A stretch of 64,000 bases of DNA from contig JBBEAN010000014.1 in assembly GCA_040882865.1 (NCBI GenBank), positions 26,565 through 90,564 on the forward strand, read 5' to 3'. Positions 3 to 16,198 of this stretch are shown here, piece after piece. The position numbers and the translations under genes were made by a program. Positions within the stretch are counted from its first letter, which is position 1, and the number at the start of each line of letters is the position of its first letter. Source of the DNA: Gammaproteobacteria bacterium (GTDB lineage: Bacteria > Pseudomonadota > Gammaproteobacteria > Natronospirales > JAIVGZ01). The notes under the pieces were generated by a model. That model was not told the origin of the DNA and did not search any database. It saw only the letters and a list, made by a program, of their open reading frames with translations.

Positions 3-593
3 GCATTACGAGACGTCCTCACACGCGCACGCGACGCCGGCATCCAGGTCTGGACCCACGCCATCGGCGACCGCGCAAACCGCATGATCCTCGACCTCTA
101 CGAAGAAGTCCTAACCGACTCAAATGTAGGAGCGGCGCCTTCGCGCCGCGATCATAGATGGCGCATCGAACACGCCCAACACCTCACCGCCGAAGACATC
201 CCACGATTCGCAGAACTCGGCGTCATTGCATCTATGCAACCGAGCCATGCAATTGGCGACTTGCACTTCGCACCGGCGCGCCTTGGCTTGGAGCGGCTTC
301 AATATGCGTACGCGTGGCGGAGCCTGCTGAATGCTGGCGCGATTATCGCGGGTGGGAGCGATGCGCCGGTTGAGGTCGGTGACCCCTGCATCGAACTGCA
401 CGCGGCGACAACTCGTTCGGATCTTGATGGGCACGTTGCACCGGGTTGGCATCCGAAACAGGCCCTTGCATTAAGGCATGCCATAAAGATGTTCACGCAA
501 AATGCGGCACATGCCTCATTTCTCAAGCGTTCAAGGAGCATGATCAGATTAGGCACTCGCGCGAACAAATATGCGATTTCGACGAGGCACTAA
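3..593 (+). CDS. Amidohydrolase family-3 (YtcJ-like metal-dependent hydrolase); 5' end off-window, C-terminus apparently truncated and degenerate
   Basis: Open from the window start in the frame of ORF 84-593. Motifs THAIGDRA, DHRWRIEHAQ, GVIASMQPSH and GGSDAPVE fit the family. It ends about 30 aa short of family members, after a degenerate G-x-x-AD-like segment (LGTRANKYAIS). A REP2 copy lies in frame at 125-152. Confidence 0.8.
   Translation, partial: ALRDVLTRARDAGIQVWTHAIGDRANRMILDLYEEVLTDSNVGAAPSRRDHRWRIEHAQHLTAEDIPRFAELGVIASMQPSHAIGDLHFAPARLGLERLQYAYAWRSLLNAGAIIAGGSDAPVEVGDPCIELHAATTRSDLDGHVAPGWHPKQALALRHAIKMFTQNAAHASFLKRSRSMIRLGTRANKYAISTRH
125..152 (-). repeat. REP2 palindromic repeat unit (inverted orientation) embedded in frame in the amidohydrolase CDS
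   Basis: TGTAGGAGCGGCGCCTTCGCGCCGCGAT differs by 1 nt from the copies at 46731-46758 and from the reverse complements of 30215-, 34957- and 46677-. It is translated as NVGAAPSRRD. Confidence 0.8.
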
Positions 594-594
594 T

Positions 595-1653
595 ATGACG
601 GAGCGCCTAATTCTTCACTCTTCTGCGCGCACTGTCAGATACCGACAGGATATCCGTCGTGTAATAAGTATGCCGGCCGGGGCGCGACTCCGATTTCGAT
701 ACCGAAAGAAGCATATCGCTGCAGGAATATATGCAGAAATCGAAAAGGAACGTCTCAATAATGTAAATGCATTGGTGTGCTTCCTTGCAGATGAACCTGC
801 AGGGAGCGTTCTATCCGTTCCATGTAGATTCGTTCGGATTGAGCGAGCGTACGTGGTCGGCGGTGAAGTATGCGTGTTTGATCTGGCACTCGGTGCCTTC
901 GCAGATGCTCCCATGACATTCTCCAGAGATGTACAGTCGGCATGCCCTAGGTTTCCAGGATCGCTTCAGATACCTAAACCGGACGAATTATTCGTCGACA
1001 AACTGCCGGCGGAGATCGAGAACGTCGTAGAGGCGAGCGATGAAATAGAATCATGGATAGCAGTAGTGCGCCAACTAGCTGAACGTGTAGCGTTCCAAGA
1101 TGAGCAGGCCTTTTATTATGTACGCGGATTAAGATCTCCAGAAAAATCGGAACTTAAGCTGTGCAAGAACGACGCACTTGAAGTGATCGGGGGCGCGGAT
1201 TACGAACTTTCGATTATCCACTTTTCGCCGTCGACCAAGCCCGTCCGTTCGGACGATGTGGTATGGCTGATGTTTGAGGCACGGGATAGCGAGATCACCT
1301 TCATCTCTTATCCTCGCCTACGTCTCGATTCGGCGTATGACGAAAAGCTTGTGCGTTTCTGTGTGCCTCCGGTAGACGTTACTAAATCATCAGTAATTAC
1401 CTTACTTGAGGGGGCTGGTCCGCCGTCCAAGCCTGTGATCGCGGACGGTTTCCACCATTTTGACATTCGCGTGACTGTGAAGCCGCGCCAATTGCTAAGG
1501 TGGGTTAAGGTAATTTTGCTTGCCGGGCTTATCTCCGCTCAAAGCCTCGCTACAAGTGAGTGGGTTCCGGATACTTTAAGACTTGTCTCAATCTTTGCGT
1601 CCGCGGTCATAATCGCCGTTGTCGCAGTGTTCGGCATACGGAAGGCTGTTTAG
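595..1653 (+). CDS. Unknown protein with C-terminal double transmembrane anchor; first gene of the Druantia-like operon
   Basis: ATG 595 is preceded by GAGG (584-587). 352 aa with no domain I can assign. Two C-terminal hydrophobic helices (VKVILLAGLISAQSLA; LVSIFASAVIIAVVAVFGI). An 11-nt gap separates it from the next ORF. Confidence 0.75.
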   Translation: MTERLILHSSARTVRYRQDIRRVISMPAGARLRFRYRKKHIAAGIYAEIEKERLNNVNALVCFLADEPAGSVLSVPCRFVRIERAYVVGGEVCVFDLALGAFADAPMTFSRDVQSACPRFPGSLQIPKPDELFVDKLPAEIENVVEASDEIESWIAVVRQLAERVAFQDEQAFYYVRGLRSPEKSELKLCKNDALEVIGGADYELSIIHFSPSTKPVRSDDVVWLMFEARDSEITFISYPRLRLDSAYDEKLVRFCVPPVDVTKSSVITLLEGAGPPSKPVIADGFHHFDIRVTVKPRQLLRWVKVILLAGLISAQSLATSEWVPDTLRLVSIFASAVIIAVVAVFGIRKAV

Positions 1654-1664
1654 CTCAATAAATC

Positions 1665-2156
1665 GTGAAAACAGACAAAATACTCAGTGAATTGTGTGCG
1701 ATCAGGCGAAGACTAGATTCCGCGTTTAGTCAGGCATCCGCATATCCAACGGTGAACGCGCTTGCGGTCGGCAGTGCAGGCCAGTGCGGGGCCACCGCGT
1801 TACTCATCCAACATTTATTTGGGGGCGATCTCGTTAGTACAAATATCGGAAAGGATAGCCACTGGTATAACCGACTTAATGTGGAAGGAACGCAAATTGA
1901 TGTTGATATCACTGGGGATCAGTACGGTTACGAACCCGTAAGGGTGGGGCCGGTCGGGACCCTTTTTAGGCAAAGCCGGATCCGATCAACTTCGGAGGTT
2001 CAATCGGAAACTCGCATTCGAGCAGCCGTGCTTGCGAGGAATTCTGGCTTTCCCTTTCCAGACGGTAGCCATTCAACAGAGCGCGGGCTTGACGAAATGA
2101 CGGCCGGTCGAATCAACCAAACGGGGAGAGCCAATGGGCCGGAAAATGAAGGCTGA
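1665..2156 (+). CDS. Small Cys-His-Asp protein, YunG-like/papain-fold-like (tentative)
   Basis: GTG start, 163 aa. GQCGATALLIQHLFGG ... SHWYNRL ... IDVDITGDQYG recalls the YunG-type pattern, from memory and unverified. The 3' end overlaps the druA-like start by 23 nt. Confidence 0.6.
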   Translation: MKTDKILSELCAIRRRLDSAFSQASAYPTVNALAVGSAGQCGATALLIQHLFGGDLVSTNIGKDSHWYNRLNVEGTQIDVDITGDQYGYEPVRVGPVGTLFRQSRIRSTSEVQSETRIRAAVLARNSGFPFPDGSHSTERGLDEMTAGRINQTGRANGPENEG

Positions 2157-3345
2157 TATCGCGAAGGTTAATTTCCGAATTGCTTCGCTTAAACGCAAGC
2201 TCAGACGACACCTTAAGGCGCTGGGATTTACTAAATCTGATGATGGTTCGCTTCAGATAAATGGGAGTGGAAAAGAAATAATTCGTGCGCTGCATAGTGC
2301 GCAAAGAAATGAAAAACTCGACCAGGCGTCAGCGCTCATTTCAAAGCGCAGTTCCGAACTCGCGAAGTTTTTCGCCAATGGCAGCGACGTTGACCCTCAG
2401 AACATTCAACCGGTACTAGAGCGCGTGAAGTCGGGTACGGTGGAATCGGAACTCTTCCGACTAGCGTCGCTTACCTGGTCCGTTCCGGTATCGAATGGCT
2501 TCGGACGCCGCATGCGCTATCTTGTGTGGGACGGATACAATGAGAAACTCATTGGCCTCATCGCAATCGGTGATCCAGTTTTTAATCTTTCGGCGCGCGA
2601 CAAGCTTATTGGATGGAACCCACAGGCTCGCGCCGAACGCCTGGTCAATGTTATGGATGCGTACGTTTTGGGTGCCGTGCCCCCCTATAATTTTCTGCTG
2701 GGCGGAAAATTGGTCGCGTGTTTGGTGAGAAGCCGCGATGTATATGATGATTTTACTCGTGCCTACGGCAACACGACAGGGATTATCTCCGAGCAAAAAA
2801 AGAAAGCAAGATTGCTCGCGGTTATGACGTCATCTTCGATGGGGCGGTCATCAATTTATAACCGCCTGAAGTTGGGTGACACTCAATACTTCGAGAGCCT
2901 CGGGTATACCGGGGGATGGGGCCACTTCCATATTCCGGACAGAATTTTTATGGACCTACGTGATTTTCTGCGCGAAATCGACCATCCGTACGCAGACTTT
3001 CATCAGTTCGGGCAAGGGCCGAATTGGCGGATGCGCACAACCCGCGCCGCATTAGGTGCTCTGGGATTCAAGAGCGATATGCTACGACACGGCGTGAAGC
3101 GAGAGGTCTTTTATTGCAAATTGGCATCGAATGCCACCGAGATTCTCCGGACCGGCCGCGGGCGACCAAATTTGAAGACGTTGATGAGCGCCGAAGAGGT
3201 AGGGGCGCAGGCTGTAGCGCGCTGGATGTTGCCCCGGTCAGTCCGTAGACCAGAGTATCTAGAGTGGACACGCGAGGAAATGTTCTCGCTACTTGGTCGA
3301 CGACGCGTAGTGTCATTCACCCAGGCAGTCGCGTCGCACGAGTGA
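2134..3345 (+). CDS. druA: DruA-like protein (DUF4338-type)
   Basis: 403 aa. The motif string GFGRRMRYLVWD ... RDKLIGW ... PPYNFLLGGKL ... MTSSSMGRSSIYNRL ... GYTGGWGHF matches the DUF4338 pattern. GGAGAG lies upstream of ATG 2134; ATG 2146 is an alternative start. It sits in an operon with a DruE-like helicase. Confidence 0.8.
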   Translation: MGRKMKADIAKVNFRIASLKRKLRRHLKALGFTKSDDGSLQINGSGKEIIRALHSAQRNEKLDQASALISKRSSELAKFFANGSDVDPQNIQPVLERVKSGTVESELFRLASLTWSVPVSNGFGRRMRYLVWDGYNEKLIGLIAIGDPVFNLSARDKLIGWNPQARAERLVNVMDAYVLGAVPPYNFLLGGKLVACLVRSRDVYDDFTRAYGNTTGIISEQKKKARLLAVMTSSSMGRSSIYNRLKLGDTQYFESLGYTGGWGHFHIPDRIFMDLRDFLREIDHPYADFHQFGQGPNWRMRTTRAALGALGFKSDMLRHGVKREVFYCKLASNATEILRTGRGRPNLKTLMSAEEVGAQAVARWMLPRSVRRPEYLEWTREEMFSLLGRRRVVSFTQAVASHE

Positions 3346-6212
3346 GCGAAGTCCGTTCAAGCGGGCAGGAAGAAGCTGCGCGAGGGCGAACGCTCGCCGA
3401 CTGGTCGCAATATCTTGCGCAGCATTTCAGCACCCTAGCGCAATCGCGGGCCCAAATTGGTACGCCTATTTTTGTACTCGAGCACGGTCTCAACAACGAC
3501 GAATTAGTTGAGATAAGCGAGAAGCTTCTCCAAGGAATACGGCTTAGGCATCCGTTTGACCAAAACTGGTTACCGTGGATCGTGTACGCAACGGAAAGGG
3601 GATACAGCTACGAAGGGGACGAATACTGGCATTCGTTCGAGGAGAAGACCGTCGGGTGGGATAGCGCAGACAGATATAGAGTAACCCAGTGGTTCAGTAA
3701 GTTCTGCGATGAATATAACGGATTCATTCCATCGGGCCCTTGGGCCAGGCATTTCAGCATCATCGCGGGTCCGATCACACACGCAATTTTGCCGCGCTAT
3801 CTCCAGTTGCAGTTTGCGCGAGCACTTTACAATCTTCGATTTCGCCTCCCAACGGTTGCCGAGTCTGGAGCAACCGAGGTTGGCCAGTGGTTCGCTGCGA
3901 ACGTAGAGCATCCGACGACTAGATTCAGTCAGTTTCTCCAGCAAGAAGAGTTAACCGGGAGAATTATTCTTGCGTTACTCGGCGGGGAGCCGGTAGAGGG
4001 AGAGGAGCGAATATATCCCTCAACTTTACAACGGATAGTTTCCGATCTCGACCAAGTACAAAGTGCGCGGACATGGCTGAGCGAAACTAGACGCGTCGTT
4101 TCGAGTCGCGAACGAGCGACAAAACAATTAAACCCAACATCTCATCCCAGGCGGACGCCTTCCCAGTCGAGCCTACGCGAGGCGCTAGATATTCGTCCGC
4201 AGATTGTGCTGCGATACGCGGGTGACGATGCGTGGGATGCCATACTCCGCGTTCCGTCGTTTCATGCGCTCGCAGCTTTAGACGGCGAAGTGCAGTCGTT
4301 CTTGCGCCGTACTCGGTGCAAGTTGAATGGCGTCGACGGTTTGAAACCGGCAGGTTGGGTTTTGAGTGGCCCTCGACACGCCTTGCTCAAGGAGTGGCCG
4401 AACTCGAAGTTGCCACTGGTGGACTTTGAAAGCGGATTGACGTCTCTGGATTATCTTCTACAGTCAAAGTGCAGCTTTCAGCGGACCGAGCCCCTGCTTT
4501 TTCGCCTGAGCAAGGATGGCAACGCGCGACAGGTAAGTGGTACGTCGGTTCGAAGCGGCTCGGAGTATGTTGTGGTGAGTTCAAGCGAAGTGCCAGACGG
4601 CGAGCTGATATCGGACGCGCGGTTGAGCTGCACGGGAGTGAACGCCTTTAAAATCACAGTCCCCGATTTGGTTTCGGATGAGAGTCGCTTGCAGCTCGAA
4701 GCACTCGGTCTGACGGTGGCACGCACGGTGCAAATTTGGCCTGCAGGGCTTCCCTCCAGAAGTTGGTGTGAATCGGGTCGGAGCGAGTGGAGCACGACCG
4801 AAACGCCATGCTTTGGAGTGACGTCAAACTTCAATGTCAATCGATACTTGGTCAAGCTCGACGACGGCGAAGAGTCGAGCATCGTTCCTGAAGGGGATCG
4901 TAAAGCGACCTTCCTCATGTTACCCGCCCTTTCTTCCGGAGAATATGTCCTCTCGATTACTGCCCACGATGATCAAGCCAATGACTCGGTGACAGGAGAG
5001 ATTGCGGTTAACGTTTACGAGCCGGTTCATTGGTCGCCTGGCACGCTCCAGAGCCAAGCGCTATTGATAAGCGTGGAACCGGTAGATGCGGATCTTGATG
5101 CGCTTTGGCGAAACGAGCTTGAGGTGTCTGTGGTTGGCCCCCAAAGTCACACCGCAAGTTTTTCCGTTGCTTTGCAGAATGCCGCCGGCGCGGAGATCTT
5201 CTCCGAAGCTGTCGGGAAATCGGTATCGCTTCCAGTTGCTTCTGATACTTGGACAAGTATGTTTGAGAGATTTCTAAACCGTGAGGATTTTTGCTGGCGG
5301 TATTTGGAGGCGGCGACCGGCAGTCTTCGTGTGCAGGCGGATGAGTTAGGAACCTTTTACGCGCATTTCCAACATGACGTGTCCCCTGTTCGCTTTTCCT
5401 TACGGCGCCATAAGGACGGGATTATTTTGAGGCTAGTCGATGAGACGGGCATAGATGATCAGTTACCGAACGCGCGCGTATACCGAATGGAACAGCCGGC
5501 GGAGGCCGTTGAACTGGCGGTGAATGATCTTCGCCGCGGGCTCGTTGTCGACCCACCTGGCGGGCTTTTTACTGTAGAGCATGGCAATTATCGCGATTCA
5601 ATTTTAGTCAGTTCTGGTTTGGCCGGCAGTGGACTTCAAGGGCTAGGTATAACGCCGACCGTCGAACTGTCGGATGCGGCCTTGGCGCTGACCTTCAGTA
5701 ATGTTTCGTGCTGGCTCAACGCGAGGAGTGTGGGAATGCTTGCTGGCGTCCGCCGTCGGCAGATCACTCGCGAGTTACTCCGATACTTTTACGCTAGCAT
5801 TTGTGGGTCGAACTGGGAGCGTAGAGAGGATGCATTTCTACGCGACGTAAAGTCATCCAGGGTCAAAGATCAGCTGGAGCGGGCTGTATGCAAAACCTTA
5901 AGCTTCGCTATCATTCTAAGTCGGAATTTCGCAAAGATAGCAGCCGACCCGAAGTCTTCGGGGGGGTGGTATTCAGAGCTAGCGAGAAGCTTTGGGCTTG
6001 CCTCATCAGAAACGGATTGTGAGTTTGCACTGATGCTTGCTTCGAGTCCTCAGTTGATTGCGGATAAATACCGAAACGAGATCGACGCCCGATTGGATTG
6101 GCTTCAGAACAATCCAGCGATTTTCCGTGGAGCAAGGTTGGTCTCGTTACTCAGTGCTAACGCCGAAGTTAAGGACGGGGTGAAGTTTTTACCGGCGTGG
6201 AAATGGAAATAA
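3342..6212 (+). CDS. Large protein of unknown function at the DruB/DruC position
   Basis: GTG 3342 overlaps the druA stop (GTGA). 956 aa with no assignable motif. The track start at 3264 is probably an over-extension into druA. Confidence 0.7.
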   Translation: MSEVRSSGQEEAARGRTLADWSQYLAQHFSTLAQSRAQIGTPIFVLEHGLNNDELVEISEKLLQGIRLRHPFDQNWLPWIVYATERGYSYEGDEYWHSFEEKTVGWDSADRYRVTQWFSKFCDEYNGFIPSGPWARHFSIIAGPITHAILPRYLQLQFARALYNLRFRLPTVAESGATEVGQWFAANVEHPTTRFSQFLQQEELTGRIILALLGGEPVEGEERIYPSTLQRIVSDLDQVQSARTWLSETRRVVSSRERATKQLNPTSHPRRTPSQSSLREALDIRPQIVLRYAGDDAWDAILRVPSFHALAALDGEVQSFLRRTRCKLNGVDGLKPAGWVLSGPRHALLKEWPNSKLPLVDFESGLTSLDYLLQSKCSFQRTEPLLFRLSKDGNARQVSGTSVRSGSEYVVVSSSEVPDGELISDARLSCTGVNAFKITVPDLVSDESRLQLEALGLTVARTVQIWPAGLPSRSWCESGRSEWSTTETPCFGVTSNFNVNRYLVKLDDGEESSIVPEGDRKATFLMLPALSSGEYVLSITAHDDQANDSVTGEIAVNVYEPVHWSPGTLQSQALLISVEPVDADLDALWRNELEVSVVGPQSHTASFSVALQNAAGAEIFSEAVGKSVSLPVASDTWTSMFERFLNREDFCWRYLEAATGSLRVQADELGTFYAHFQHDVSPVRFSLRRHKDGIILRLVDETGIDDQLPNARVYRMEQPAEAVELAVNDLRRGLVVDPPGGLFTVEHGNYRDSILVSSGLAGSGLQGLGITPTVELSDAALALTFSNVSCWLNARSVGMLAGVRRRQITRELLRYFYASICGSNWERREDAFLRDVKSSRVKDQLERAVCKTLSFAIILSRNFAKIAADPKSSGGWYSELARSFGLASSETDCEFALMLASSPQLIADKYRNEIDARLDWLQNNPAIFRGARLVSLLSANAEVKDGVKFLPAWKWK

Positions 6213-7273
6213 AAAAAGCGCCGCCCAACGAAATCATCGCGGCGTGTAGGTCAGCGTTCGGCCTGTCACGCCGAGATGATGTGGATGACATACTTTTAAC
6301 CGAAATGGCAAGGCGCAGTGCTGGATTCCATTGTCCATGCTCCCGGACCACGTTGCGAGCCTCTCTTGAGGAATCTCTCCAGCTTCTCTGCGATATCGAC
6401 GTCGAACAAATCGACAGCGCTATTGAACGTCTTGTTGTCGGCGGTGATCTTCTAGAATTACGAGATGTAATCACCACAGACGGTGCCACGAATGGAACGT
6501 GGGTTTACTCTGCCCCACCTACGTTCGTAGTTCGCCCGAGCGGGAGTATCTTTCTTACAGGCGTTGTACCCAACCAATCAACATTTCTCCCGCCCCCCCT
6601 TTCAAGTCGAGTTGTTTCGGATGGTTACACACGTGTGCTCAAAGAAAACGACCGTGAAGATCTTTCCGAAGAGTTGCTCGCTCATGGATTTCAGGCGCTT
6701 CCGGAGAGTATTTGGTTACGCGCGCCTAAGGCCGTCCCTGCGCAGAAGCTAGTTGACGAGCACTTGGTTCACCTCGGCCTTCAAAATCCCTGCGGAGCTG
6801 TCGGTGATATAGAGCTCATCGATACAAGCCATCCAGTACGGTTTTATCGTGGTCGATGGGTGCAGCCAGTCGACCAGACAGGAATGTTCGTCGCCCGCAG
6901 AAAGCAACGATACGGTGCGGCGCTTTGGTGCGTCGTTGAGGTCATTAGAGGAGAGCCGTTGAAGCTGTTTGATTTGCCAAAGGGTCACAGTCGATGGCGC
7001 GGTTGCGACGAAGCATGGAGACTTCAAATGGCGATAGACAGTTGCGCTAATTCACCGCAGGAGTACCAATATCGGGAGATGACGGATGGGGTTCGGCTGG
7101 ATTTCTTTTCGCCATTGCCGCAATGGGCCGTACGACGACTCATGATCTTTGGCGAACCGATCGCTTCAAAAAATTCACTTTTCTCATACTTGTTGCCGCC
7201 ATCTGAAGCCTCTGCGGAACACAAATATTTGCAGGAACGACTTTGGTTGCGTGGAGTTTGTAATTCGAATTAG
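6197..7273 (+). CDS. Protein of unknown function at the DruD position
   Basis: GTG 6197 or ATG 6203 overlaps the upstream stop (6210-6212). 358 aa with no recognisable domain. Its TAG stop lies within the RBS of the next gene. Confidence 0.7.
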   Translation: MEMEIKKAPPNEIIAACRSAFGLSRRDDVDDILLTEMARRSAGFHCPCSRTTLRASLEESLQLLCDIDVEQIDSAIERLVVGGDLLELRDVITTDGATNGTWVYSAPPTFVVRPSGSIFLTGVVPNQSTFLPPPLSSRVVSDGYTRVLKENDREDLSEELLAHGFQALPESIWLRAPKAVPAQKLVDEHLVHLGLQNPCGAVGDIELIDTSHPVRFYRGRWVQPVDQTGMFVARRKQRYGAALWCVVEVIRGEPLKLFDLPKGHSRWRGCDEAWRLQMAIDSCANSPQEYQYREMTDGVRLDFFSPLPQWAVRRLMIFGEPIASKNSLFSYLLPPSEASAEHKYLQERLWLRGVCNSN

Positions 7274-7280
7274 GAGATAT

Positions 7281-10200
7281 ATGCAAACCATTCATATGGC
7301 GGTCAGGCAATTGCGACTCGCACTCATGGAGTATATAGAGGCGACCTATCACATCAGTTCACCAGCGCTGATTGCCCAGCGGAAGGCATTGCTTAACAGT
7401 CCAGGCGTAATCTTTCAAATTCCGTATCTTGAATCCACGCCTCGTTATAAGGCTGGCGCGACATTTTCTGAACTTGGTGGATTACCGCCAGCTGCTCTGA
7501 AAGTCTTTGAGGCCCTTTCGAGTACTACGGGCGGAGTACCGCGCCTCCTGTACGATCCACCATACCTGCATCAGGCGCAGACGTTACAACACAGCCTTTC
7601 CGAAAAATCCAACGTTGTAATAATGACCGGAACAGGATCTGGTAAAACCGAGTCATTTCTCATGCCTATACTAGGTAAACTTGCAAACGAGGCTGCCACT
7701 AAGCCGACGAGCTTTGCTGGTCAGCCGGCCGTTCGAGCTCTAGTTCTATATCCCATGAATGCTTTAGTTAACGACCAACTTGGTCGTCTTCGAGGGCTAT
7801 TCGGTGACGCGCGTGTCCGAGATCTTTTCATGGGCTGGGCAGGTAGGCCACCGCGATTCGCGAGGTATACAAGCCGGACTCCGTATGCCGGGGTCCGGGT
7901 AGCCTCGAAAGACACAACCAAGCTTGCGGCGTTCGAAAAATTCTATGCCGGCATTCAGAGATTAATTACGGATGGCGACGACGCTGAGAAGCAGCGAGCG
8001 AAACGACTCCTTGCCGAGCTTCAGCAACGTGGAAAGTGGCCGGCTAAACCAGACATCGCTGCTTGGTACGGCGAAAAAGGTAGTAGGTGGCAGGATCCGC
8101 AGACAGGTGATTTTCGTAGAGCGATAACGCTGCCGGACGACTCCGAGTTGGTGACTCGTCACGAAGTGCAGGCGGCACCGCCAGATCTACTGGTTACAAA
8201 CTATTCAATGCTTGAGTACATGTTGATGCGTCCCGTGGAACGTCCAATCTTTGATGCCACTTGTGATTGGCTTAGAAGTAATCCCGACGAGCGATTCTTA
8301 GTCGTACTTGACGAGGCGCATCTGTATCGTGGTGCGGCCGGAGCAGAAGTGGGCTTGCTGTTAAGACGACTTCGAGATCGACTTGGAGCAACGGACAGTC
8401 AGTTTCAAGTAATCTGCGCCACGGCGAGCTTTTCGAATCCAGAAAGTGCGCGCAGGTTCGGCGCTCAGCTCTCTGGATTGCCGGAGAATACATTTGTTTC
8501 AATAACTGGGACGTTACATCTCGCGAGCGAAGATGGAACAGGAGGGCAGTCAGATATCGATGCACTCAGAACCATAGAGCTAGAAAAGTTCTACGAAGCG
8601 AATACAGATAAGGAGAAACTTGGAGCTATCCGTGAGTTTCTTCAATATCGCGGAGTCGAGGTTATTGACGCGCCAGAGTCAACCCTGTTTCGTGCGCTCT
8701 GTGATTTTGCGCCACTGAAGCTGCTCATTAATTCAACCATGAAGGAAGCGATGCCCATTGCGTCGCTGGCAGAGATAATCTTCCCGGGCGCCTCTCAACC
8801 GGAAGCGGATCAAGCGCTGACCGCGCTACTCGCGTTGGGTAGTGTAGCGCGTCCAAACAAGCAATCCTCCGGACTATTGCCCTGCCGGATTCATAATTTC
8901 TTCAGAGGCCTACCAGGTCTTTGGATTTGTCTGGATACTGATTGCTCCGAAGTTTCCGCAGAGAATAAAAACGCAATTGGAGGTCAGCTATTTAGTCAGC
9001 CTCGTACACGATGTCGGTGCGGGGCACGCGTGTTCGAGTTGTTCACCTGTCGGAACTGCGGAACGGCGTATGCGCGAGCTTATACGGATGATGTCGACTC
9101 ACCTCGGGCACTATGGGCAGAGCCGGGTGAGCACCTCTTTATGGGCGACGATGATACACGCTCGTTGTTCCCGATTGACCTGCTGCTTGAGTCGCCATTG
9201 GATGAGTTGGCAGAACCGGTCGATCTGGATGTGGAGACCGGACGCCTCAATCCAAACGTTTTGGGTCCGAGAACGCGAACGGTCTTCCTTCGTGGCGTTC
9301 GTACATCCGACGTCAACGAGGACGGCCAGCCACGATCGAAATTTGAAGAGCGGGGGAAATTCAATCCTTGTGGCGTGTGCGGAAAGACCGCCGGCTATGG
9401 CCGATCCCCGGTCCAAGACCACCAAACTAAGGGCGATGAACCATTTCAAGCGCTAGTTGCACGGCAACTGCAAATTCAACCGCCTAGCTCCCCAAGACCT
9501 ACGCAATTTGCACCGCTGCAAGGCAGGAAAGTATTAGCATTCTCAGATTCGAGACAGGTGGCTGCGCGTCTTGCTCCAAAGCTTCAAACACTTTCCGTCC
9601 GTGATTCATTGCGTCCGTTAATCGCCTGGGGGTTTCGGAAGCTTCAAGGTTCGGAAAGGATCCTCCCCAACCTGAACCTGGATGATCTTTACCTTGCAGT
9701 GTTGCTGGCCTCCAACGAACTCGGTGTGCGGTTGCGTCCGGAGATGAAAGCGTCTGAGAGTTTCGAGGCGGAAGAGATGGTGGGTAAGGCCGTCCGCGAT
9801 GCCGTAACCAACACGCGCGAAGGATTACTGCAGGTTTGGATGGATGTACGTGGCGAAAGGCCACCTGAAGCGCTATTAGACAGTATCGTAACTGCGGTAC
9901 GAGATAAATATCTCGGATTCGAGGCGTTGGCACTCGGTTCTATTGTGGAGAGGCGGCGGCACTCTGAAGAAATCGCTGGGTTGCCGGACATAGTAGGGAT
10001 TGCGGAGAACCCATCCGAGAAAAGCGAACTTGTCCGCGCGTGGATTAGATGTTGGAGTAATAAAGGATTTTGGCTGAATGGCATGCCCGGCCAATGGTGG
10101 CGTGAAAAAGTTCAAGGCGATAGTGGGAAATTTCCGAAAGCTATGTCGCTTATCATCCGAGATACGAAGGCGCGCGCAGAGTTCGCTAAGGTGTGGCTAC

Positions 10201-12794
10201 CTATATTGCTCTCTCGATTTACGAAAGACATGAGCGGAATCCGGCAACTTAGCGGGAGCGAGCTATCACTGCAATTCGACGGCTATTGGGTCCAATGTGC
10301 AATCTGCAAGTCAGTGCATCGACCTATGAGGCGCGTTGCGCACTGTATCGATTGTGGACGTGACGCTATCCGCCAGCTTGATCCGGACGTGGATGCGGTG
10401 TTTCTGGCGCGAAAGGGGTTCTATAGGAATCCAGTCCTGGCTTCATTGGCGAATCCTCCAGCGAAGCCTATGGCGCTAATCGCCGCGGAGCACACCGCGC
10501 AGCTAAATGCCCCGCAAAGCGAGGACGTTTTTTCCAAGGCGGAGGAGAACGAACTCCTTTTCCAGGATGTCGATATAAGTGGAATATCAGACGGACGCGG
10601 GGCAACTGCAGTGGATGTCCTTTCGAGCACCACAACAATGGAAGTTGGTATCGATATCGGAGAGTTGTCGGGCGTTGCGCTTCGGAATATGCCGCCAGGT
10701 CGATCGAACTATCAACAACGAGCGGGCCGGGCGGGACGCCGAGGTAGCGCGGTAGCTACCGTTGTCGCATTCGGGAGCGCGGATAGCCACGACGAGCACT
10801 TCTTTTCCACCCCCGCGCTTATGATTACGGGACCGGTCATAGACCCCAAATTAACGCTATCTAATATTGAGATCGTGCGTCGTCATATTAGAGCGTTCCT
10901 GCTTCAGAATTATCACCAATCGAGGATACAAGGTACCGACAGGAACCTATCGCATGATCTCTTTTCGGTACTCGGAACCGTTTCCGGTTTTAGGGATCGA
11001 GAGTCGCTTTTGAATCGGCATGATTTTGCGGGTTGGCTGAGTGAAAATGAGAGCAGACTCCGACTGCGCGTCGACAGTTGGATACCGCACGAACTTGCAG
11101 CGGCGGATCGCGCAGGTCTATTGGATGAGATGCGTACTGACTGTCTAACCGCGATAGATCAAGCCATTGATTATGTAGAACCTGAAAACGTCGACACCCC
11201 TTCGGAGCCCCACGACAATGACGAACCAGATTCCGAAAACGAGGAGGACACTTCTGTAGCGGGGCGCGGGTCCGATCAACTGCTTGGCAGGCTGCTTTAC
11301 CGCGGTATTTTGCCCCGATACGCTTTCCCCACTGATGTTGCGACATTCCACGTTTTTGACGTTAACCGATCTTCGCGGTTCAAGGCAGTAATGCGTTTTG
11401 TGCCGTCGCAAGGCCTTCCAGTCGCCCTGTCTCAGTACGCCCCCGGAAAGCAGGTATGGATAGCGGGAAAGTGCTATACGTCCGGTGCGATTTATTCGAC
11501 TATGCCTAGTGACAGGTTTAGTGCATGGCAAGACCGACGAATATATATGGAATGTAGCGCCTGCGGGTTCGCTAGGACATATCTTGTCGAGGAGGCGAAT
11601 AGAGGTGAAATTAAGGACTGCGAGGCCTGCGGAGGGATGGGGACATTTGGACCAGCTCGTTATTGGCTTCGGCCTCCCGGCTTTGCGCATCCGGTCGATG
11701 TAGAGGAGGTTACATCACCAGAAACGATGCCCGATGTGAGCTACGCAACTCGTGCAAAGTTAACGATGCCGACGCCGGATGATGGTGGGAGGTGGACCAG
11801 GCTGAACGACCGCCTCCGCACGCTTAGTGTGAGACAGCATTTACTGGTTTCAAATACGGGCCCAGATGACGAAGGTTACACATACTGCGTGAAGTGCGGC
11901 CGGATCGAGTCGAGTGTCGAACGTGATCCGAAAATTCTTGGAGGTCACCGCAAACCGTATCCTTCTTCAGAGAGCGAAAGGGTTTGCGACGGAGTGACGC
12001 CTTCAAAACACCTAGTCCTCGGGACGGATTTTATAACCGATATCGCGTTGTTCTCCTTGCGTGTAGCTACACCCTTAAAGCTGAGACCAGGTCACTCGTC
12101 GACGATAGTGGCACTCCGCACGTTAAGTGAGGCAGTCGCGCAGGCCGCCTGTCTGCTTCTCGAAGTTGAGGCAGGCGAATTGCTGGCAGAGTTCCGACCT
12201 GCGCTGACGCCAGATGGAAAAGAGGGGCTAGAAGCCGAGATATTTCTGTACGACGCGTTACCCGGCGGTGCGGGATTTTCCACTCAAGTCGCCGCTCGTG
12301 GAATTGAGCTTCTCCAGGGGGCGTTACATCTAATGAAAACCTGCCCGGAAAATTGTGATGCATCCTGCTATCGATGTCTTAGAAGTTTCAAAAATAAGTT
12401 TGAGCATCGACTTCTGGATCGGCATGTGGGCGCTCAGCTACTCGAGTACCTCCTCGATGGCAATCCAACCGAGTTCAGCGAGGAGCGCGTTCAAGAGTCT
12501 ACTTCGTTACTTTTCGCAGATCTCCAACGCATGGGAGCGTCCATACAATTTTCGCGCGACGCTGGGATTTCGGAGTCCGGTGTCATAGCCCCCATCTTGG
12601 CTAAGCGCGCTGATGACGAAGTCTGCATTGTGGCACTTTCCGCCCCTCTCACCACCGATTACCCTGCCGACCGACTAATAGCGCGATATTCCGAGAATGG
12701 CGGTGCCATTCCGGTGCTCGTTGTCAATGAACTCACGGTCCGTGCGAACCTTCCGGCAGCAACTAGACAAGTCCTAGCGCAACTCGGTGAATAA
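7281..12794 (+). CDS. druE: DruE-like giant SF2 helicase with multiple zinc ribbons and a C-terminal DUF1998-type domain
   Basis: AGGAGA (7272-7277) precedes ATG 7281. 1837 aa. Motifs: GTGSGKT (7629-7649), DEAH (8310-8321), QQRAGRAGRRG (10713-10745), CPENCDASCYRC (12342-12377). The track start at 7149 lies inside the upstream gene. Confidence 0.85.
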   Translation: MQTIHMAVRQLRLALMEYIEATYHISSPALIAQRKALLNSPGVIFQIPYLESTPRYKAGATFSELGGLPPAALKVFEALSSTTGGVPRLLYDPPYLHQAQTLQHSLSEKSNVVIMTGTGSGKTESFLMPILGKLANEAATKPTSFAGQPAVRALVLYPMNALVNDQLGRLRGLFGDARVRDLFMGWAGRPPRFARYTSRTPYAGVRVASKDTTKLAAFEKFYAGIQRLITDGDDAEKQRAKRLLAELQQRGKWPAKPDIAAWYGEKGSRWQDPQTGDFRRAITLPDDSELVTRHEVQAAPPDLLVTNYSMLEYMLMRPVERPIFDATCDWLRSNPDERFLVVLDEAHLYRGAAGAEVGLLLRRLRDRLGATDSQFQVICATASFSNPESARRFGAQLSGLPENTFVSITGTLHLASEDGTGGQSDIDALRTIELEKFYEANTDKEKLGAIREFLQYRGVEVIDAPESTLFRALCDFAPLKLLINSTMKEAMPIASLAEIIFPGASQPEADQALTALLALGSVARPNKQSSGLLPCRIHNFFRGLPGLWICLDTDCSEVSAENKNAIGGQLFSQPRTRCRCGARVFELFTCRNCGTAYARAYTDDVDSPRALWAEPGEHLFMGDDDTRSLFPIDLLLESPLDELAEPVDLDVETGRLNPNVLGPRTRTVFLRGVRTSDVNEDGQPRSKFEERGKFNPCGVCGKTAGYGRSPVQDHQTKGDEPFQALVARQLQIQPPSSPRPTQFAPLQGRKVLAFSDSRQVAARLAPKLQTLSVRDSLRPLIAWGFRKLQGSERILPNLNLDDLYLAVLLASNELGVRLRPEMKASESFEAEEMVGKAVRDAVTNTREGLLQVWMDVRGERPPEALLDSIVTAVRDKYLGFEALALGSIVERRRHSEEIAGLPDIVGIAENPSEKSELVRAWIRCWSNKGFWLNGMPGQWWREKVQGDSGKFPKAMSLIIRDTKARAEFAKVWLPILLSRFTKDMSGIRQLSGSELSLQFDGYWVQCAICKSVHRPMRRVAHCIDCGRDAIRQLDPDVDAVFLARKGFYRNPVLASLANPPAKPMALIAAEHTAQLNAPQSEDVFSKAEENELLFQDVDISGISDGRGATAVDVLSSTTTMEVGIDIGELSGVALRNMPPGRSNYQQRAGRAGRRGSAVATVVAFGSADSHDEHFFSTPALMITGPVIDPKLTLSNIEIVRRHIRAFLLQNYHQSRIQGTDRNLSHDLFSVLGTVSGFRDRESLLNRHDFAGWLSENESRLRLRVDSWIPHELAAADRAGLLDEMRTDCLTAIDQAIDYVEPENVDTPSEPHDNDEPDSENEEDTSVAGRGSDQLLGRLLYRGILPRYAFPTDVATFHVFDVNRSSRFKAVMRFVPSQGLPVALSQYAPGKQVWIAGKCYTSGAIYSTMPSDRFSAWQDRRIYMECSACGFARTYLVEEANRGEIKDCEACGGMGTFGPARYWLRPPGFAHPVDVEEVTSPETMPDVSYATRAKLTMPTPDDGGRWTRLNDRLRTLSVRQHLLVSNTGPDDEGYTYCVKCGRIESSVERDPKILGGHRKPYPSSESERVCDGVTPSKHLVLGTDFITDIALFSLRVATPLKLRPGHSSTIVALRTLSEAVAQAACLLLEVEAGELLAEFRPALTPDGKEGLEAEIFLYDALPGGAGFSTQVAARGIELLQGALHLMKTCPENCDASCYRCLRSFKNKFEHRLLDRHVGAQLLEYLLDGNPTEFSEERVQESTSLLFADLQRMGASIQFSRDAGISESGVIAPILAKRADDEVCIVALSAPLTTDYPADRLIARYSENGGAIPVLVVNELTVRANLPAATRQVLAQLGE

Positions 12795-12873
12795 GAAAGG
12801 AGAACTTGATCGATTCTGGCGCGGTACCGATCCATAATCACAAATTATGAGTTCAATCACGGGACTCGTCGCG

Positions 12874-13815
12874 TTACTGCGCCAAAAATAGGGAGTAACG
12901 CTCTTCAAGCCGCTCTGTATTTGGTTGATGTTCTTTCAGCTTTGGAACTTCAATCGCCTTGCCATGCATTTCTTTCAAGGCATGCTGTAGGACTGGCCCG
13001 TCAAATTCAGTTAATAGATCTCGGCGAATATGCACGGTACAGTCCGGGCGAATTCCCAAGAAGAGTTTGTCGAATGCGGCATGGTGGATCTTGCATAACG
13101 CCAAGCCATTAGAAATCACCGGCTCTCCCGAAGCTTCTCTATCTTCCGTTATATGGGCGGCATCCAACAACTGAGGATGCCTAAGGCGACAAAGCGCGCA
13201 CTGCGTTCGATAGGCGCGAATTACTCGAAACCGAAATGCCTGTTGGTGGGCTCTAACCCTGACCTGTGCAGTTCGATATTGCCTCCTAATTTCACCATAC
13301 TCCGTAAAGTAGTCGGGAGGTAACTCTGTGTTGCTAGCCCAATAATCCGATACATTGCGATCTTCAGCGCGGACAGTGAAGCGGAGATTATTCGGCTCGT
13401 CGCCGATCACAAAGACGGGCCAGGTCGCCAGATACTGACCTGGAACGATGCCGTGGAGGTAAATTAGCGGTAGTTGTAGGCGCATGAGCTCACGCAAACC
13501 GCAGTTTTCACGATGGCTGGGGTCGGTACCCCGGTATCGATAAAGCAGGGTTTTATCGTCGATGAAGCCGTCGTCGTAAGGTCCGTTCGGAGACGTAGTA
13601 ATCGTTAGTGGCAAGTCGCTATCGGTCGCTGCAGGAATAAAGATTCCTTGTGGTCCGACAAGAGGTACCCGGGCGCCCTGTAGATCAAATCCTCGGGCTA
13701 GAACAGCTCGTGGAAGGACAAGCGCTTCGGCGTTATCGATCCCTGCAGTTAAACGCAAAGACTCAAGCCAAGCGAAGGCCTCTTTACGTACTACGTGGTC
13801 AGGTATTCGCGACAT
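12874..13815 (-). CDS. HNH endonuclease with N-terminal PUA/SRA-like domain; probable type IV (modification-dependent) restriction enzyme
   Basis: 313 aa. C-terminal CALCRLRHPQLLDAAHI ... NGLALCKIHHAAFD is an HNH motif. The N-terminal LLYRYRGTDPSHRENCGLRELM...PLIYLHG resembles the Y-x-Y-x-G ... N-x-x-L pattern of SRA-HNH enzymes (COG3440-like). No methyltransferase nearby. Confidence 0.65.
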   Translation of the reverse strand: MSRIPDHVVRKEAFAWLESLRLTAGIDNAEALVLPRAVLARGFDLQGARVPLVGPQGIFIPAATDSDLPLTITTSPNGPYDDGFIDDKTLLYRYRGTDPSHRENCGLRELMRLQLPLIYLHGIVPGQYLATWPVFVIGDEPNNLRFTVRAEDRNVSDYWASNTELPPDYFTEYGEIRRQYRTAQVRVRAHQQAFRFRVIRAYRTQCALCRLRHPQLLDAAHITEDREASGEPVISNGLALCKIHHAAFDKLFLGIRPDCTVHIRRDLLTEFDGPVLQHALKEMHGKAIEVPKLKEHQPNTERLEERYSLFLAQ

Positions 13816-13936
13816 GATTGAATCGCCCCCTCTCGATCAAGTCTAGACCAAATCTACATCTCGAGAGACACCTACCTATGGCGGGTAGGTATCAATTTGG
13901 CGCGTAGTGCGGGCTAGGGCTTAGGTTGAACTTAGA

Positions 13937-15447: not shown

Positions 15448-15458
15448 AAAGGTGAATC

Positions 15459-16183: not shown

Positions 16184-16198
16184 CGCTCGTACGACGAA

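What the first reader, a model, noticed from the sequence alone, without database searches (positions are those of the whole stretch)
595..2156. Two extra upstream genes coupled to the Druantia-like operon: a membrane-anchored unknown protein and a small Cys-His-Asp (YunG-like) protein
Seen: ORF1 (352 aa) has no recognisable domain but ends in two hydrophobic helices. ORF2 (163 aa) has GQCGATAL ... SHWYN ... DVDITGDQYG, that is Cys, His and Asp in the order used by papain/transglutaminase-fold enzymes. From memory this resembles the uncharacterised YunG family. ORF2 overlaps the druA-like start and ORF1 ends 11 nt before ORF2. Both share the low G+C of the block. Inference: they may be an added membrane effector plus thiol-enzyme module of the Druantia-like system, or an independent two-gene defence system fused into the same transcript. 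I know of neither in a described defence system.
Basis: partly seen in the sequence, partly recalled or inferred. Interest (0 to 1): 0.65.

Follow-up and report, generated by a model that had tools for sequence, protein, structure and literature searches.

The report
DruA-linked membrane protein and thiol enzyme
Two unannotated genes at the head of this Druantia type I anti-phage operon, a membrane-anchored protein of an unclassified family and a small YunG-family Cys-His-Asp protein, form a gene pair that recurs next to the DruA gene in several kinds of defence operon, so they are probably an optional, undescribed accessory module.

Summary
ORF1 (595-1653, 352 aa) and ORF2 (1665-2156, 163 aa) are real genes. 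They sit 11 nt apart, and ORF2 overlaps the DruA start.

- **ORF2:** a YunG-family protein (Pfam PF24585, E 4e-15). Cys41, His66 and Asp81 are essentially invariant.
- **ORF1:** founds a family of at least 347 clusters with no Pfam, NCBIfam or PADLOC model. The confident AlphaFold model (pLDDT 93) shows an alpha/beta domain, an Ig-like sandwich and a conserved C-terminal two-helix membrane hairpin.
- **Pairing:** the two genes are adjacent in 19 of 27 evaluable loci found from the YunG side.
- **Link to DruA:** 20 of 25 ORF1-positive loci with enough flank also carry DruA or its partner genes. The partners are Druantia I, DndFGH/SspFGH-like systems with DruA fused to DndF, and DruA with paired GHKL ATPases.
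- **Optional:** the closest DruA operons on plasmids lack the pair.

I read ORF1 and ORF2 as an optional accessory arm tied to DruA, most likely a membrane-acting effector controlled by a thiol enzyme. That mechanism is inferred, not shown. I found no description of the pair in the searched literature or in PADLOC.

The parts
595..1653 (+). ORF1, 352 aa: founding member of an unclassified family of DruA-associated, C-terminally membrane-anchored proteins
   Evidence: ORF. It has 347 representative clusters at E<=1e-3, mostly about 350 aa and full length. No Pfam, NCBIfam or PADLOC hit for it, for the 52 aligned homologues or for 7 further members. AlphaFold2 model: pLDDT 93.3, pTM 0.89.
595..1104 (+). 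ORF1 N-terminal alpha/beta domain (residues 1-170) with the most conserved polar residues: S9, S10, Y16, D19, R22, F34, R35, Y36, D65, P76, R78
   Evidence: Secondary structure. Conserved columns over 53 sequences. Foldseek found no match for this domain in the PDB or BFVD.
1111..1482 (+). ORF1 Ig-like beta-sandwich (residues 173-296) carrying the motif D245-S246-x-Y248-D249-x-K251
   Evidence: All-beta segment. The only Foldseek matches are generic Ig-like sandwiches such as pilus chaperones, MSP and RhoGDI, with query TM-score about 0.2. Conserved columns.
1489..1632 (+). ORF1 C-terminal membrane hairpin: helix 299-320, short loop, helix 327-346, then a conserved basic tail F-G-[LI]-[RK]-[KR]
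   Evidence: Helices. Two hydrophobic 19-residue stretches lie in the last 75 residues of 50 of 53 family members. Conserved G310, Q/P316-Q317 and small residues at 337, 341 and 344. Basic residues flank both ends, so I infer that the N-terminal domains and the C-terminus both face the cytoplasm.
1665..2156 (+). ORF2, 163 aa: YunG-family protein (PF24585), a putative Cys-His-Asp thiol enzyme. The conserved core is residues 1-130 and the tail 131-163 is low-confidence
   Evidence: Pfam E 4.2e-15. All 66 aligned homologues hit PF24585. AlphaFold2 model pLDDT 89. The gene is not called in the NCBI record.
1785..1907 (+). Codons of the putative catalytic triad: Cys41 (1785-1787, TGC), His66 (1860-1862, CAC), Asp81 (1905-1907, GAT)
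   Evidence: Codons read. C41, H66, D81, T83 and Q86 are invariant in 66 sequences. In 101 non-redundant homologues, Cys is present in 54 of 54 linked to ORF1, and His, Asp81, Thr83, Asp85 and Gln86 are present in all. Cys41 sits at the first residue of helix 41-52, and His66 and Asp81 lie on the next two strands.
2134..3345 (+). DruA (DUF4338), whose start overlaps the end of ORF2. It is the gene with which the ORF1/ORF2 pair co-occurs across system types
   Evidence: PADLOC DruA1 E 1e-200. Pfam PF14236 E 1e-83. DUF4338 is described as a GNAT-like acetyltransferase domain in PMC10853773.
3264..12794 (+). Rest of the Druantia type I operon: a 982-aa protein in the DruB/DruC position (3264-6212), DruD (6197-7273) and DruE1 helicase (7149-12794)
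   Evidence: PADLOC DruD1 E 5e-120 and DruE1 E 0, with no PADLOC hit for the 982-aa protein. The same four-gene layout is on Nitrosococcus watsonii pNWAT01.

Best explanation
ORF1 and ORF2 are a conserved but optional two-gene cassette that works with DruA, the DUF4338/GNAT-like protein of Druantia type I. The same cassette is attached to other DruA-containing defence operons.

**Shown**
- ORF1 has two soluble domains and a conserved C-terminal two-helix membrane hairpin.
- ORF2 is a soluble YunG-family protein with invariant Cys, His and Asp.
- The three genes are packed as one translationally coupled unit at the head of the operon.

**Inferred**
- Both soluble domains of ORF1 face the cytoplasm.
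- The Cys/His/Asp arrangement of ORF2 is that of a thiol hydrolase or transferase.
- Together with DruA, the pair forms a membrane-linked arm of the system.

**Mechanism I commit to (inferred)**
- ORF1 is a membrane-acting effector that disturbs the membrane by oligomerising through its hairpin.
- Its cytoplasmic domains receive the activating signal.
- YunG controls ORF1, or a DruA-made acyl mark, by thiol-dependent cleavage or deacylation.
- The helicase or ATPase core (DruE, DndH-like or GHKL) does the DNA sensing.

**Probabilities**
- Functional link to DruA: about 0.7.
- ORF1 as an effector rather than an anchor or sensor: about 0.4.
- YunG as an active thiol enzyme: about 0.6.
For: **The pair is conserved.**
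- Among 96 non-redundant YunG loci found from the YunG side, 72 belong to the close subfamily. Of the 27 close loci with at least 1.2 kb on both sides, 19 have an ORF1-family gene within 100 bp. In 39 of 45 pairs ORF1 lies upstream on the same strand.
- All five ORF1-side loci closest to the window protein carry YunG next door.
- One protein, P0063, is an ORF1::YunG fusion.

**The pair is linked to DruA.**
- 20 of 25 ORF1-positive loci with at least 5 kb on one side hold DruA or Druantia/DndGH-like genes, against 1 of 7 ORF1-negative loci (Fisher p 0.003).
- All five ORF1-side loci with at least 3 kb of flank hold DruA or a DruA-like gene. Two of them have no YunG.
- Gene order and orientation vary while the association persists. 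ORF1-YunG-DruA is co-directional in the window and in L003. DruA-ORF1 is followed by a convergent YunG in L009 and L033. The pair is convergent with a DruA::DndF-G-H operon in L007 and L020. It lies downstream of DruE in L021, L039 and L128.
- Partner systems were identified by PADLOC and Pfam.
- Hosts span Gamma- and Betaproteobacteria, Myxococcota, Acidobacteriota, Verrucomicrobiota and Gemmatimonadota.

**Operon packing in the window.** The gap is 11 nt, ORF2 overlaps the DruA start, and no terminator-like site lies between the genes.

**Protein features.**
- Both AlphaFold models are confident.
- The hairpin is conserved in sequence, not only in hydrophobicity: G310, Q/P-Q at 316-317, small residues at 337, 341 and 344, and the tail FG[LI][RK][KR].
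- The Cys/His/Asp columns are invariant.

**Context.** The genes lie in a low-G+C defence island that also holds an HNH gene, AbiE and a Fic gene.
Against: - **No functional data** exist for ORF1, YunG or DruA.
- **The pair is dispensable.** The closest DruA operon, on Nitrosococcus watsonii pNWAT01 (65% DruA identity, same layout), and the DruA-E operon of P. putida pKF715A have neither gene. None of the 11 plasmid records with DruA has an ORF1 or a close YunG match.
- **DruA is sometimes absent.** Five of 25 pairs show no DruA or partner gene in the DNA fetched. L090 is an example, with more than 9 kb on both sides.
- **YunG occurs in other contexts.** These include actinobacterial chromosomes, viral contigs and loci next to an HNH gene.
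- **The YunG fold is not confirmed.** The best Foldseek match in the PDB is E 0.1 (HRASLS2), and profile searches of PDB sequences found nothing.
- **ORF1 matches no known membrane effector**. A C-terminal hairpin could equally be a plain anchor.
- **The fusion protein is a singleton** seen on one contig.
- **The GNAT assignment of DruA** comes from one paper and was not re-tested here.
Confidence: 0.55

Rival explanations
1. ORF1 and YunG form a self-contained two-gene defence or abortive-infection system, a membrane toxin with a thiol-enzyme partner. It merely tends to land beside DruA-containing systems in defence islands and is co-transcribed here by accident of insertion.
For: - Pairs occur with no DruA in the fetched DNA: L090 with more than 9 kb on each side, and L018, L062 and L095 with more than 7 kb on one side.
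- Closely related Druantia I operons lack the pair.
- The pair keeps its own internal order, ORF1 then YunG in 39 of 45 cases, whatever its orientation to DruA.
- An ORF1::YunG fusion exists.
Against: - An 80% co-occurrence with a rare gene family, across three or more unrelated core machineries and several phyla, is much more than island clustering would give.
- ORF1 can sit directly against DruA without YunG: the gap is 10 nt in L122. In L009 the gap between DruA and ORF1 is 22 nt.
- In the window, ORF2 overlaps the DruA start.
Confidence: 0.2
2. The pair is linked to DruA, but ORF1 is not an effector. ORF1 tethers or sequesters the DruA-containing complex at the inner membrane, for example near the site of phage DNA entry, or acts as a membrane-bound regulator. 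YunG matures ORF1, releases it, or erases a DruA-made modification.
For: - It rests on the same co-occurrence data as the best explanation.
- The hairpin lies at the extreme C-terminus with only a 3-8 residue outer loop, as in tail-anchored proteins.
- In the GHKL-type loci a sigma-70 region 4/LuxR-type protein is transcribed divergently from ORF1. That would fit a membrane-tethered regulator released by proteolysis.
- Pairs of a modifying enzyme and the enzyme that removes the mark are common in conflict systems (general knowledge).
Against: - The membrane helices carry conserved polar and small-residue motifs that a plain anchor does not need.
- The window has no sigma-like gene.
- If YunG were an obligatory antidote to DruA it should accompany every DruA, and it does not.
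Confidence: 0.2
3. The two ORFs have nothing to do with defence. They are housekeeping or decaying passenger genes, or mis-called ORFs.
For: - The NCBI annotation omits ORF2 and shortens ORF1.
- Distant YunG genes in actinobacterial chromosomes have no defence neighbours.
Against: - Both families are large, and their members align over nearly full length.
- Both give high-confidence models.
- The motifs are invariant.
- The neighbours are consistently defence genes.
Confidence: 0.03

Closest known systems
Druantia type I (DruA-DruB-DruC-DruD-DruE)
   Same: DruA, DruD and DruE1 are recognised by PADLOC directly downstream in the same orientation, with overlapping or abutting reading frames.
   Different: - The described system has no ORF1 or YunG gene, and PADLOC has no model for either.
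- Close relatives on plasmids lack them.
- One unrecognised 982-aa protein stands where DruB and DruC would be.
DndFGH/SspFGH-type restriction modules whose DndF carries an N-terminal DUF4338 (GNAT-like) domain (Aravind laboratory, PMC10853773)
   Same: Related loci L003, L007, L020, L025, L045, L086 and L088 carry the ORF1-YunG pair next to such operons. Examples are a DruA::SspF-like protein of about 1240 aa, an SspG-like protein and a DndH-like HerA/FtsK ATPase. The paper reads the fused N-terminal domains as co-effectors.
   Different: - The passages I retrieved by term search in that paper do not mention a YunG-like or two-helix membrane partner, and terms such as '2TM', 'transglutaminase' and 'papain' do not occur in it.
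- The window itself has DruE, not DndFGH.
YunG of Bacillus subtilis and the Pfam family PF24585
   Same: ORF2 passes the family threshold and shares the conserved G-x-C, H-W-x-N-R and D-x-T-x-D-Q motifs.
   Different: - The family has no known function, and I found no paper on it.
- The subfamily linked to ORF1 and DruA is distinct from the actinobacterial and phage-borne members, which stand alone.
Two-helix membrane effectors of abortive-infection systems (CBASS Cap14/Cap15, Pycsar PycTM, SLATT-domain proteins)
   Same: The general plan is the same: a soluble cytoplasmic domain joined to two membrane helices, encoded in a defence operon. This comparison is from my own knowledge and was not tested.
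   Different: - There is no sequence or fold match to any of them.
- The helices here are at the C-terminus.
- The operon contains no enzyme that would make a signalling nucleotide.
Papain/transglutaminase-like thiol enzymes (Cys-His-Asp)
   Same: - The order Cys, then His, then Asp, with spacings of 25 and 15 residues.
- Cys lies at the start of a helix, and His and Asp lie on the following strands of the model.
- Among the weak Foldseek matches are papain-like enzymes: HRASLS2, USP7, USP28, Josephin-2 and the CPR-C4 protease.
   Different: - None of those matches is significant: the best has E 0.1 and TM-score 0.24-0.33.
- No Pfam peptidase or transglutaminase family is hit by any of 66 members.

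Membership tests
YunG (Pfam PF24585) | Score above the Pfam gathering threshold | tested here: met
   56.4 bits against a cut-off of 27, E 4.2e-15, residues 12-98 on profile positions 4-89 of 116.
YunG (Pfam PF24585) | Family-wide conserved motifs present in ORF2 | tested here: met
   G39, C41, H66, D81, T83, Q86 and T116 are invariant in 66 sequences. The same columns hold in 101 non-redundant homologues.
Papain/transglutaminase-like thiol enzymes | Conserved Cys, His and Asp in that order, with Cys at the N-terminus of a helix and His and Asp on adjacent strands | tested here: met
   In the model, helix 41-52 starts at C41, strand 64-73 holds H66 and strand 76-81 holds D81. Conservation is shown.
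Papain/transglutaminase-like thiol enzymes | Significant structural or profile similarity to a solved member | tested here: inconclusive
   - The best Foldseek match in the PDB is E 0.1 (HRASLS2).
- Other papain-like proteins appear only at E of about 1.
- The profile search of PDB sequences found nothing.
Papain/transglutaminase-like thiol enzymes | Thiol-dependent catalytic activity | not testable with these tools
   This needs biochemistry, such as the C41A and H66A mutants and a search for the substrate.
Druantia type I | DruA, DruD and DruE present in one operon | tested here: met
   PADLOC DruA1 E 1e-200, DruD1 E 5e-120 and DruE1 E 0.
Druantia type I | DruB and DruC present | tested here: not met
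   The single 982-aa protein in that position hits no PADLOC or Pfam family. The same single gene is found on pNWAT01 and in L033, L060, L082 and L129.
Druantia type I | ORF1 and ORF2 are among the genes that define the system | tested here: not met
   PADLOC has no model for either. The related operons on pNWAT01 and pKF715A lack both. They are additions to the defined system, not members of it.
Known two-helix membrane effectors of defence systems (CBASS, Pycsar, SLATT and others in PADLOC) | Sequence-profile match to a described effector family | tested here: not met
   No PADLOC hit at E<=0.01. No consistent Pfam hit in 53 aligned members plus 7 further members.
Known two-helix membrane effectors of defence systems (CBASS, Pycsar, SLATT and others in PADLOC) | Two membrane helices joined to a soluble domain | tested here: met
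   Unlike most described examples, the helices here are C-terminal.
Known two-helix membrane effectors of defence systems (CBASS, Pycsar, SLATT and others in PADLOC) | Membrane disruption on activation | not testable with these tools
   This needs toxicity and membrane-potential assays.

The most novel reading that the evidence does not exclude
DruA, the ORF1-family protein and YunG would together be a portable three-part module that plugs into unrelated DNA-tracking machines: the DruE helicase, DndH-like HerA/FtsK ATPases and paired GHKL ATPases.

In this reading DruA places an acyl-type mark on a protein or on DNA. A 2024 preprint reports a methylation-like PacBio signal in cells carrying type I Druantia, a system with no methylase domain. 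YunG reads or removes that mark. In one locus a uracil-DNA-glycosylase-superfamily protein sits in YunG's place. ORF1 then couples the outcome to the membrane.

If true, this would give the first mechanistic handle on DruA and on type I Druantia. It would also define a new kind of accessory module shared between defence systems.
Probability: 0.15. Interest if true: 0.85.

Novelty: new variant of a known kind. Interest (0 to 1): 0.62.

Why it matters
- **An open question becomes testable.** Type I Druantia is experimentally active, but its mechanism is unexplained and DruA has no known role. I found no paper on DruA's function.
- **Two candidate partners for DruA.** The conserved pair of a membrane protein and a thiol enzyme follows DruA across at least three different defence machineries. 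That points to a membrane-linked step. It also suggests that DruA works as a module shared between Druantia, Dnd/Ssp-type and GHKL-type systems.
- **Annotation gaps.** The ORF1 family has at least 347 clusters and no Pfam, NCBIfam or PADLOC model. ORF2 was missed altogether in the public annotation of this genome. Defence-system finders therefore overlook both genes.

Tried and rejected
- **ORF1-side locus search failed.** The search for related loci with ORF1 alignments of 53 and 9 sequences had no stretch conserved enough to search with. The census was therefore run from the YunG side, with eight ORF1-side look-ups as a cross-check.
- **The word-index search for ORF1 found only itself**. The exhaustive representative search was needed.
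- **Fold searches**
  - The PDB and BFVD gave only generic Ig-like matches for ORF1.
  - Nothing significant came up for YunG.
  - The N-terminal domain of ORF1 and the YunG fold therefore remain unclassified.
- **Profile searches of PDB sequences** found nothing for ORF1, YunG or DruA.
- **Searches with nothing useful**
  - NCBIfam gave no meaningful hit.
  - PHROGs gave one weak hit, phrog_30351, to ORF1 residues 9-49 at E 4e-4, not followed up.
  - The promoter scan found no sigma-70-like site upstream of ORF1 on the + strand.
- **Literature searches** for 'YunG' alone returned only the surname, and 'yunG' with 'yunF' returned nothing.
- **Domain fusions of YunG.** I looked for them in long actinobacterial ORFs. 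Those are stop-free stretches of high-G+C DNA, not fusions.
- **ORF1 as a PD-(D/E)xK nuclease.** I considered this because of the D-S-x-Y-D-x-K motif. I rejected it because the motif lies in a beta-sandwich.
- **YunG as an obligatory antidote to a toxic DruA.** I rejected this because many DruA operons lack it.
Full report
**1. What is in the sequence**

The window comes from a metagenome-assembled gammaproteobacterial genome, GCA_040903365.1, contig JBBDVN010000015.1. Positions from about 595 to 17,400 form a low-G+C block: 0.54 against 0.64 for the rest of the window. It lies between two amidohydrolase genes.

The block carries these genes:

| Coordinates | Strand | Gene |
|---|---|---|
| 595-1653 | + | ORF1 |
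| 1665-2156 | + | ORF2 |
| 2134-3345 | + | DruA |
| 3264-6212 | + | unrecognised 982-aa protein |
| 6197-7273 | + | DruD |
| 7149-12794 | + | DruE1 |
| 12874-13815 | - | HNH protein |
| 13937-15477 | - | AbiEii/AbiEi |
| 16199-17422 | - | Fic protein |

- ORF1 is 352 aa and ORF2 is 163 aa, with the quoted motifs.
- The gap between them is 11 nt.
- ORF2 overlaps the DruA start by 23 nt or 11 nt, depending on which ATG DruA uses.
- Both share the low G+C of the block.

ORF1 starts at ATG 595. A GAGG lies 8 nt upstream, and homologues align from residue 5-8 onward. The public annotation starts it at V94, giving 259 aa, and does not call ORF2 at all.

**2. ORF2 is a YunG-family protein**

Pfam PF24585 matches at E 4.2e-15. 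A profile of five homologues finds 616 proteins, and all 66 that I aligned hit PF24585 and no other family.

G39, C41, H66, D81, T83, Q86 and T116 are invariant in those 66 sequences. In 101 non-redundant homologues recovered with their DNA:
- Cys41 is present in all 54 that sit next to an ORF1-family gene;
- His66, Asp81, Thr83, Asp85 and Gln86 never vary;
- two unlinked homologues have Ser in place of Cys.

The AlphaFold2 model has pLDDT 89, and above 95 over most of residues 1-130. It puts Cys41 at the first residue of a helix and His66 and Asp81 on the next two strands. That is the arrangement used by papain- and transglutaminase-like enzymes.

Membership of that fold is not established. 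The best Foldseek match in the PDB is HRASLS2 at E 0.1, and USP7, USP28, Josephin-2 and the CPR-C4 protease appear only at E of about 1. A profile search of PDB sequences is empty. The more sensitive structure libraries were unavailable.

**3. ORF1 founds an unclassified family**

No Pfam, NCBIfam or PADLOC model matches it, its 52 aligned homologues, or seven further members. The exhaustive search of 1.84 billion representatives finds 347 clusters at E<=1e-3, mostly about 350 aa and aligned end to end.

The model is very confident, with pLDDT 93.3 and pTM 0.89. It shows three parts.
- **N-terminal alpha/beta domain, residues 1-170.** It carries most of the invariant polar residues: S9, S10, Y16, D19, R22, R35, Y36, D65 and R78.
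- **Ig-like beta-sandwich, residues 173-296.** It carries the motif D245-S246-x-Y248-D249-x-K251.
- **Two C-terminal helices, 299-320 and 327-346.** They are separated by a few residues and flanked by basic residues.

I infer from the basic flanks that both ends face the cytoplasm. The single ORF1::YunG fusion protein agrees with that.

The hairpin is present in 50 of 53 members. It is conserved in sequence as well as in hydrophobicity:
- Gly or Ala at 310;
- Gln or Pro at 316, followed by Gln at 317;
- small residues at 337, 341 and 344;
- the tail F-G-[LI]-[RK]-[KR].

Foldseek against the PDB and BFVD matches only the generic sandwich.

**4. The two genes are a conserved pair**

A 1.9-kb contig carries a YunG homologue (38% identity) convergent with an ORF1 homologue (28% identity). 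The four ORF1-family representatives closest to the window protein that I looked up (P0005, P0008, P0011, P0069) all have YunG next door. In one of these loci YunG is visible only after correcting a wrong-strand gene call.

I then collected loci from the YunG side, which is unbiased with respect to ORF1: 26 from genomes, 80 from metagenomes and 6 from viral contigs. I scanned their six-frame ORFs with my own profiles.

| Measure | Result |
|---|---|
| Non-redundant YunG loci | 96 |
| In the close YunG subfamily | 72 |
| Close loci with at least 1.2 kb on both sides | 27 |
| Of those, with an ORF1-family gene within 100 bp | 19 |
| Pairs with ORF1 upstream on the same strand | 39 of 45 |
| Distant YunG loci (actinobacteria, Candidate Phyla Radiation bacteria, viral contigs) with ORF1 | 2 of 24 |

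**5. The pair follows DruA**

Of 25 ORF1-positive loci with at least 5 kb on one side, 20 also hold DruA or Druantia/DndGH-like genes. Only 1 of 7 ORF1-negative loci does (Fisher p 0.003).

The five ORF1-side loci with at least 3 kb of flank all contain DruA or a DruA-like gene. Two of them lack YunG:
- L122 has ORF1, then DruA after 10 nt, then a kinase/ORC-like ATPase;
- L124 has an ORF1-like gene, a UDG-superfamily protein, a GHKL ATPase and a DruA-like gene.

The partner machinery differs between loci.
- **(i) Druantia type I:** the window, L033, L060, L082 and L129. In L021, L039, L074 and L128 the pair lies downstream of DruE.
- **(ii) DndFGH/SspFGH-like:** a protein of about 1240 aa that is DruA fused to a DndF/SspF-like core, then an SspG-like protein, then a DndH-like HerA/FtsK ATPase. 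Examples are L003, L007, L020, L025, L045, L086 and L088 (PADLOC).
- **(iii) Long DruA with GHKL ATPases:** a DruA of about 680 aa, two GHKL (HATPase_c_3) ATPases and a sigma-70 region 4/LuxR protein, with no DruE or DndH within 10 kb. Examples are L015, L024 and L042.

Orientation relative to DruA varies between co-directional, convergent and divergent, while the association persists. Hosts span at least six phyla or classes. Persistence of this kind is what one expects of a functional link rather than simple co-inheritance.

DUF4338 is described as a GNAT-like acetyltransferase domain, and its fusion to DndF is read there as a co-effector (PMC10853773). I did not re-test the GNAT assignment.

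**6. The pair is optional**

The closest DruA found in an annotated record is on Nitrosococcus watsonii plasmid pNWAT01, at 65% identity. It heads the same four-gene operon, of 410, 955, 360 and 1849 aa, with no ORF1 or YunG. P. putida pKF715A has a DruA-E operon with separate genes in the DruB and DruC positions and also lacks both.

None of the 11 plasmid records with DruA has an ORF1 match or a close YunG match. One group of YunG loci sits next to an HNH gene, and in one of them a decayed ORF1 remnant is still visible.

**7. How it most likely works**

Shown:
- a translationally coupled ORF1-ORF2-DruA unit at the head of a Druantia I operon;
- a conserved gene pair;
- a strong, orientation-independent association with DruA in different systems;
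- a conserved membrane hairpin;
- an invariant Cys/His/Asp set.

Inferred: the pair is an accessory arm that acts with DruA. I commit to the following mechanism. ORF1 is a membrane-acting effector. Its cytoplasmic domains receive a signal, and its hairpin oligomerises through the conserved small-residue and Gln positions. YunG is a thiol hydrolase or transferase that controls ORF1, or a DruA-made acyl mark, by cleavage or deacylation. The helicase or ATPase core senses foreign DNA.

I put the DruA link at about 0.7, the effector reading at about 0.4 and YunG catalysis at about 0.6.

Rivals, with my probability for each:
- an independent two-gene system that merely co-locates with DruA (0.2);
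- a tether, sensor or regulator role for ORF1 rather than an effector role (0.2);
- no defence role at all (0.03).

**8. Comparison with what is known, and novelty**

The window carries a Druantia type I operon of a variant with a single gene in the DruB/DruC position. ORF1 and ORF2 are not part of the defined system: PADLOC has no model for either. I found no paper describing them with DruA, and none on DruA's mechanism.

A 2024 preprint reports a methylation-like PacBio signal in cells carrying type I Druantia, a system with no methylase domain. That leaves room for DruA-dependent chemistry.

I rate the finding as a new variant of a known kind: a known system with an undescribed, recurrent accessory cassette that is shared with other DruA-containing systems. 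The interest is real but rests on comparative genomics only.

Noticed in passing
window 3264-6212: The 982-aa protein between DruA and DruD hits no PADLOC DruB or DruC model and no Pfam family. The same single gene of about 950-990 aa recurs on Nitrosococcus watsonii pNWAT01 and in L033, L060, L082 and L129. P. putida pKF715A instead has two genes there (558 and 625 aa). This looks like a distinct subtype of Druantia I.
   Followed up: partly
window 595-2156, and L002 10001-11273: The public NCBI annotation of this contig starts ORF1 at V94, giving 259 aa, and does not call ORF2 at all. In L007 and L008 the gene caller chose a spurious ORF on the opposite strand over the YunG gene.
   Followed up: yes
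window 84-593 and 17586-18728: The low-G+C island lies between two amidohydrolase genes. The left one ends 1 nt before the ORF1 ATG, and its Pfam match stops at profile position 440 of 472. The island may therefore have replaced its last codons. There is no tRNA anywhere in the window.
   Followed up: partly
window 12874-17422: The rest of the island holds an HNH protein (12874-13815, -), AbiEii/AbiEi (13937-15477, -), small unknown ORFs and a Fic/DOC protein (16199-17422, -). In the source contig, ParE/PhdYeFM and PIN/BrnA toxin-antitoxin pairs lie just upstream of the window.
   Followed up: partly
L015 1972-8562, L024 1859-8257, L042 6118-11319: A recurring set consists of a DruA of about 680 aa, two GHKL (HATPase_c_3) ATPases and a sigma-70 region 4/LuxR-type protein, next to ORF1-YunG and with no DruE or DndH within 10 kb. 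It may be an undescribed DruA-based system type.
   Followed up: partly
P0063 (513 aa, one Logan contig of 6.1 kb): A single protein joins an ORF1-family part (residues 3-344, 26% identity) to a YunG part (residues 382-501, 40% identity to ORF2). It is either a true fusion or a lost stop codon. It was seen only once.
   Followed up: yes
L124 2628-7270: A distant ORF1-family gene is followed by a uracil-DNA-glycosylase-superfamily protein in the position YunG usually holds, then a GHKL ATPase and a DruA-like ORF.
   Followed up: partly
L116-L121 and L130 10001-10453: YunG homologues also occur without ORF1 or DruA on six IMG/VR viral contigs. Another lies in a phage-like stretch of many small genes that includes an Acb2/Tad1-hairpin hit. 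No match was found in the GenBank phage collection.
   Followed up: no
L010, L011, L022, L053: One group of closely related YunG genes sits next to an HNH-type protein of about 280-335 aa instead of ORF1. In L053, a remnant of the ORF1 N-terminal domain (the 'IPCRYGRL' region) is still readable in frame upstream of YunG.
   Followed up: partly
L035 and L079: Two YunG homologues not linked to ORF1 have Ser in place of the conserved Cys. In L079 the stop-free ORF that contains the YunG domain extends upstream over a hydrophobic N-terminal segment.
   Followed up: no
L003 7168-7800, L047, L062, L072, L088: A RadC/JAB-like gene lies close to the ORF1-YunG pair in several loci, directly upstream of ORF1 in L003 and L088.
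   Followed up: no
L129 10001-12494: In this Druantia I locus a HAD-family hydrolase gene is inserted between YunG and the ORF1-family gene.
   Followed up: no
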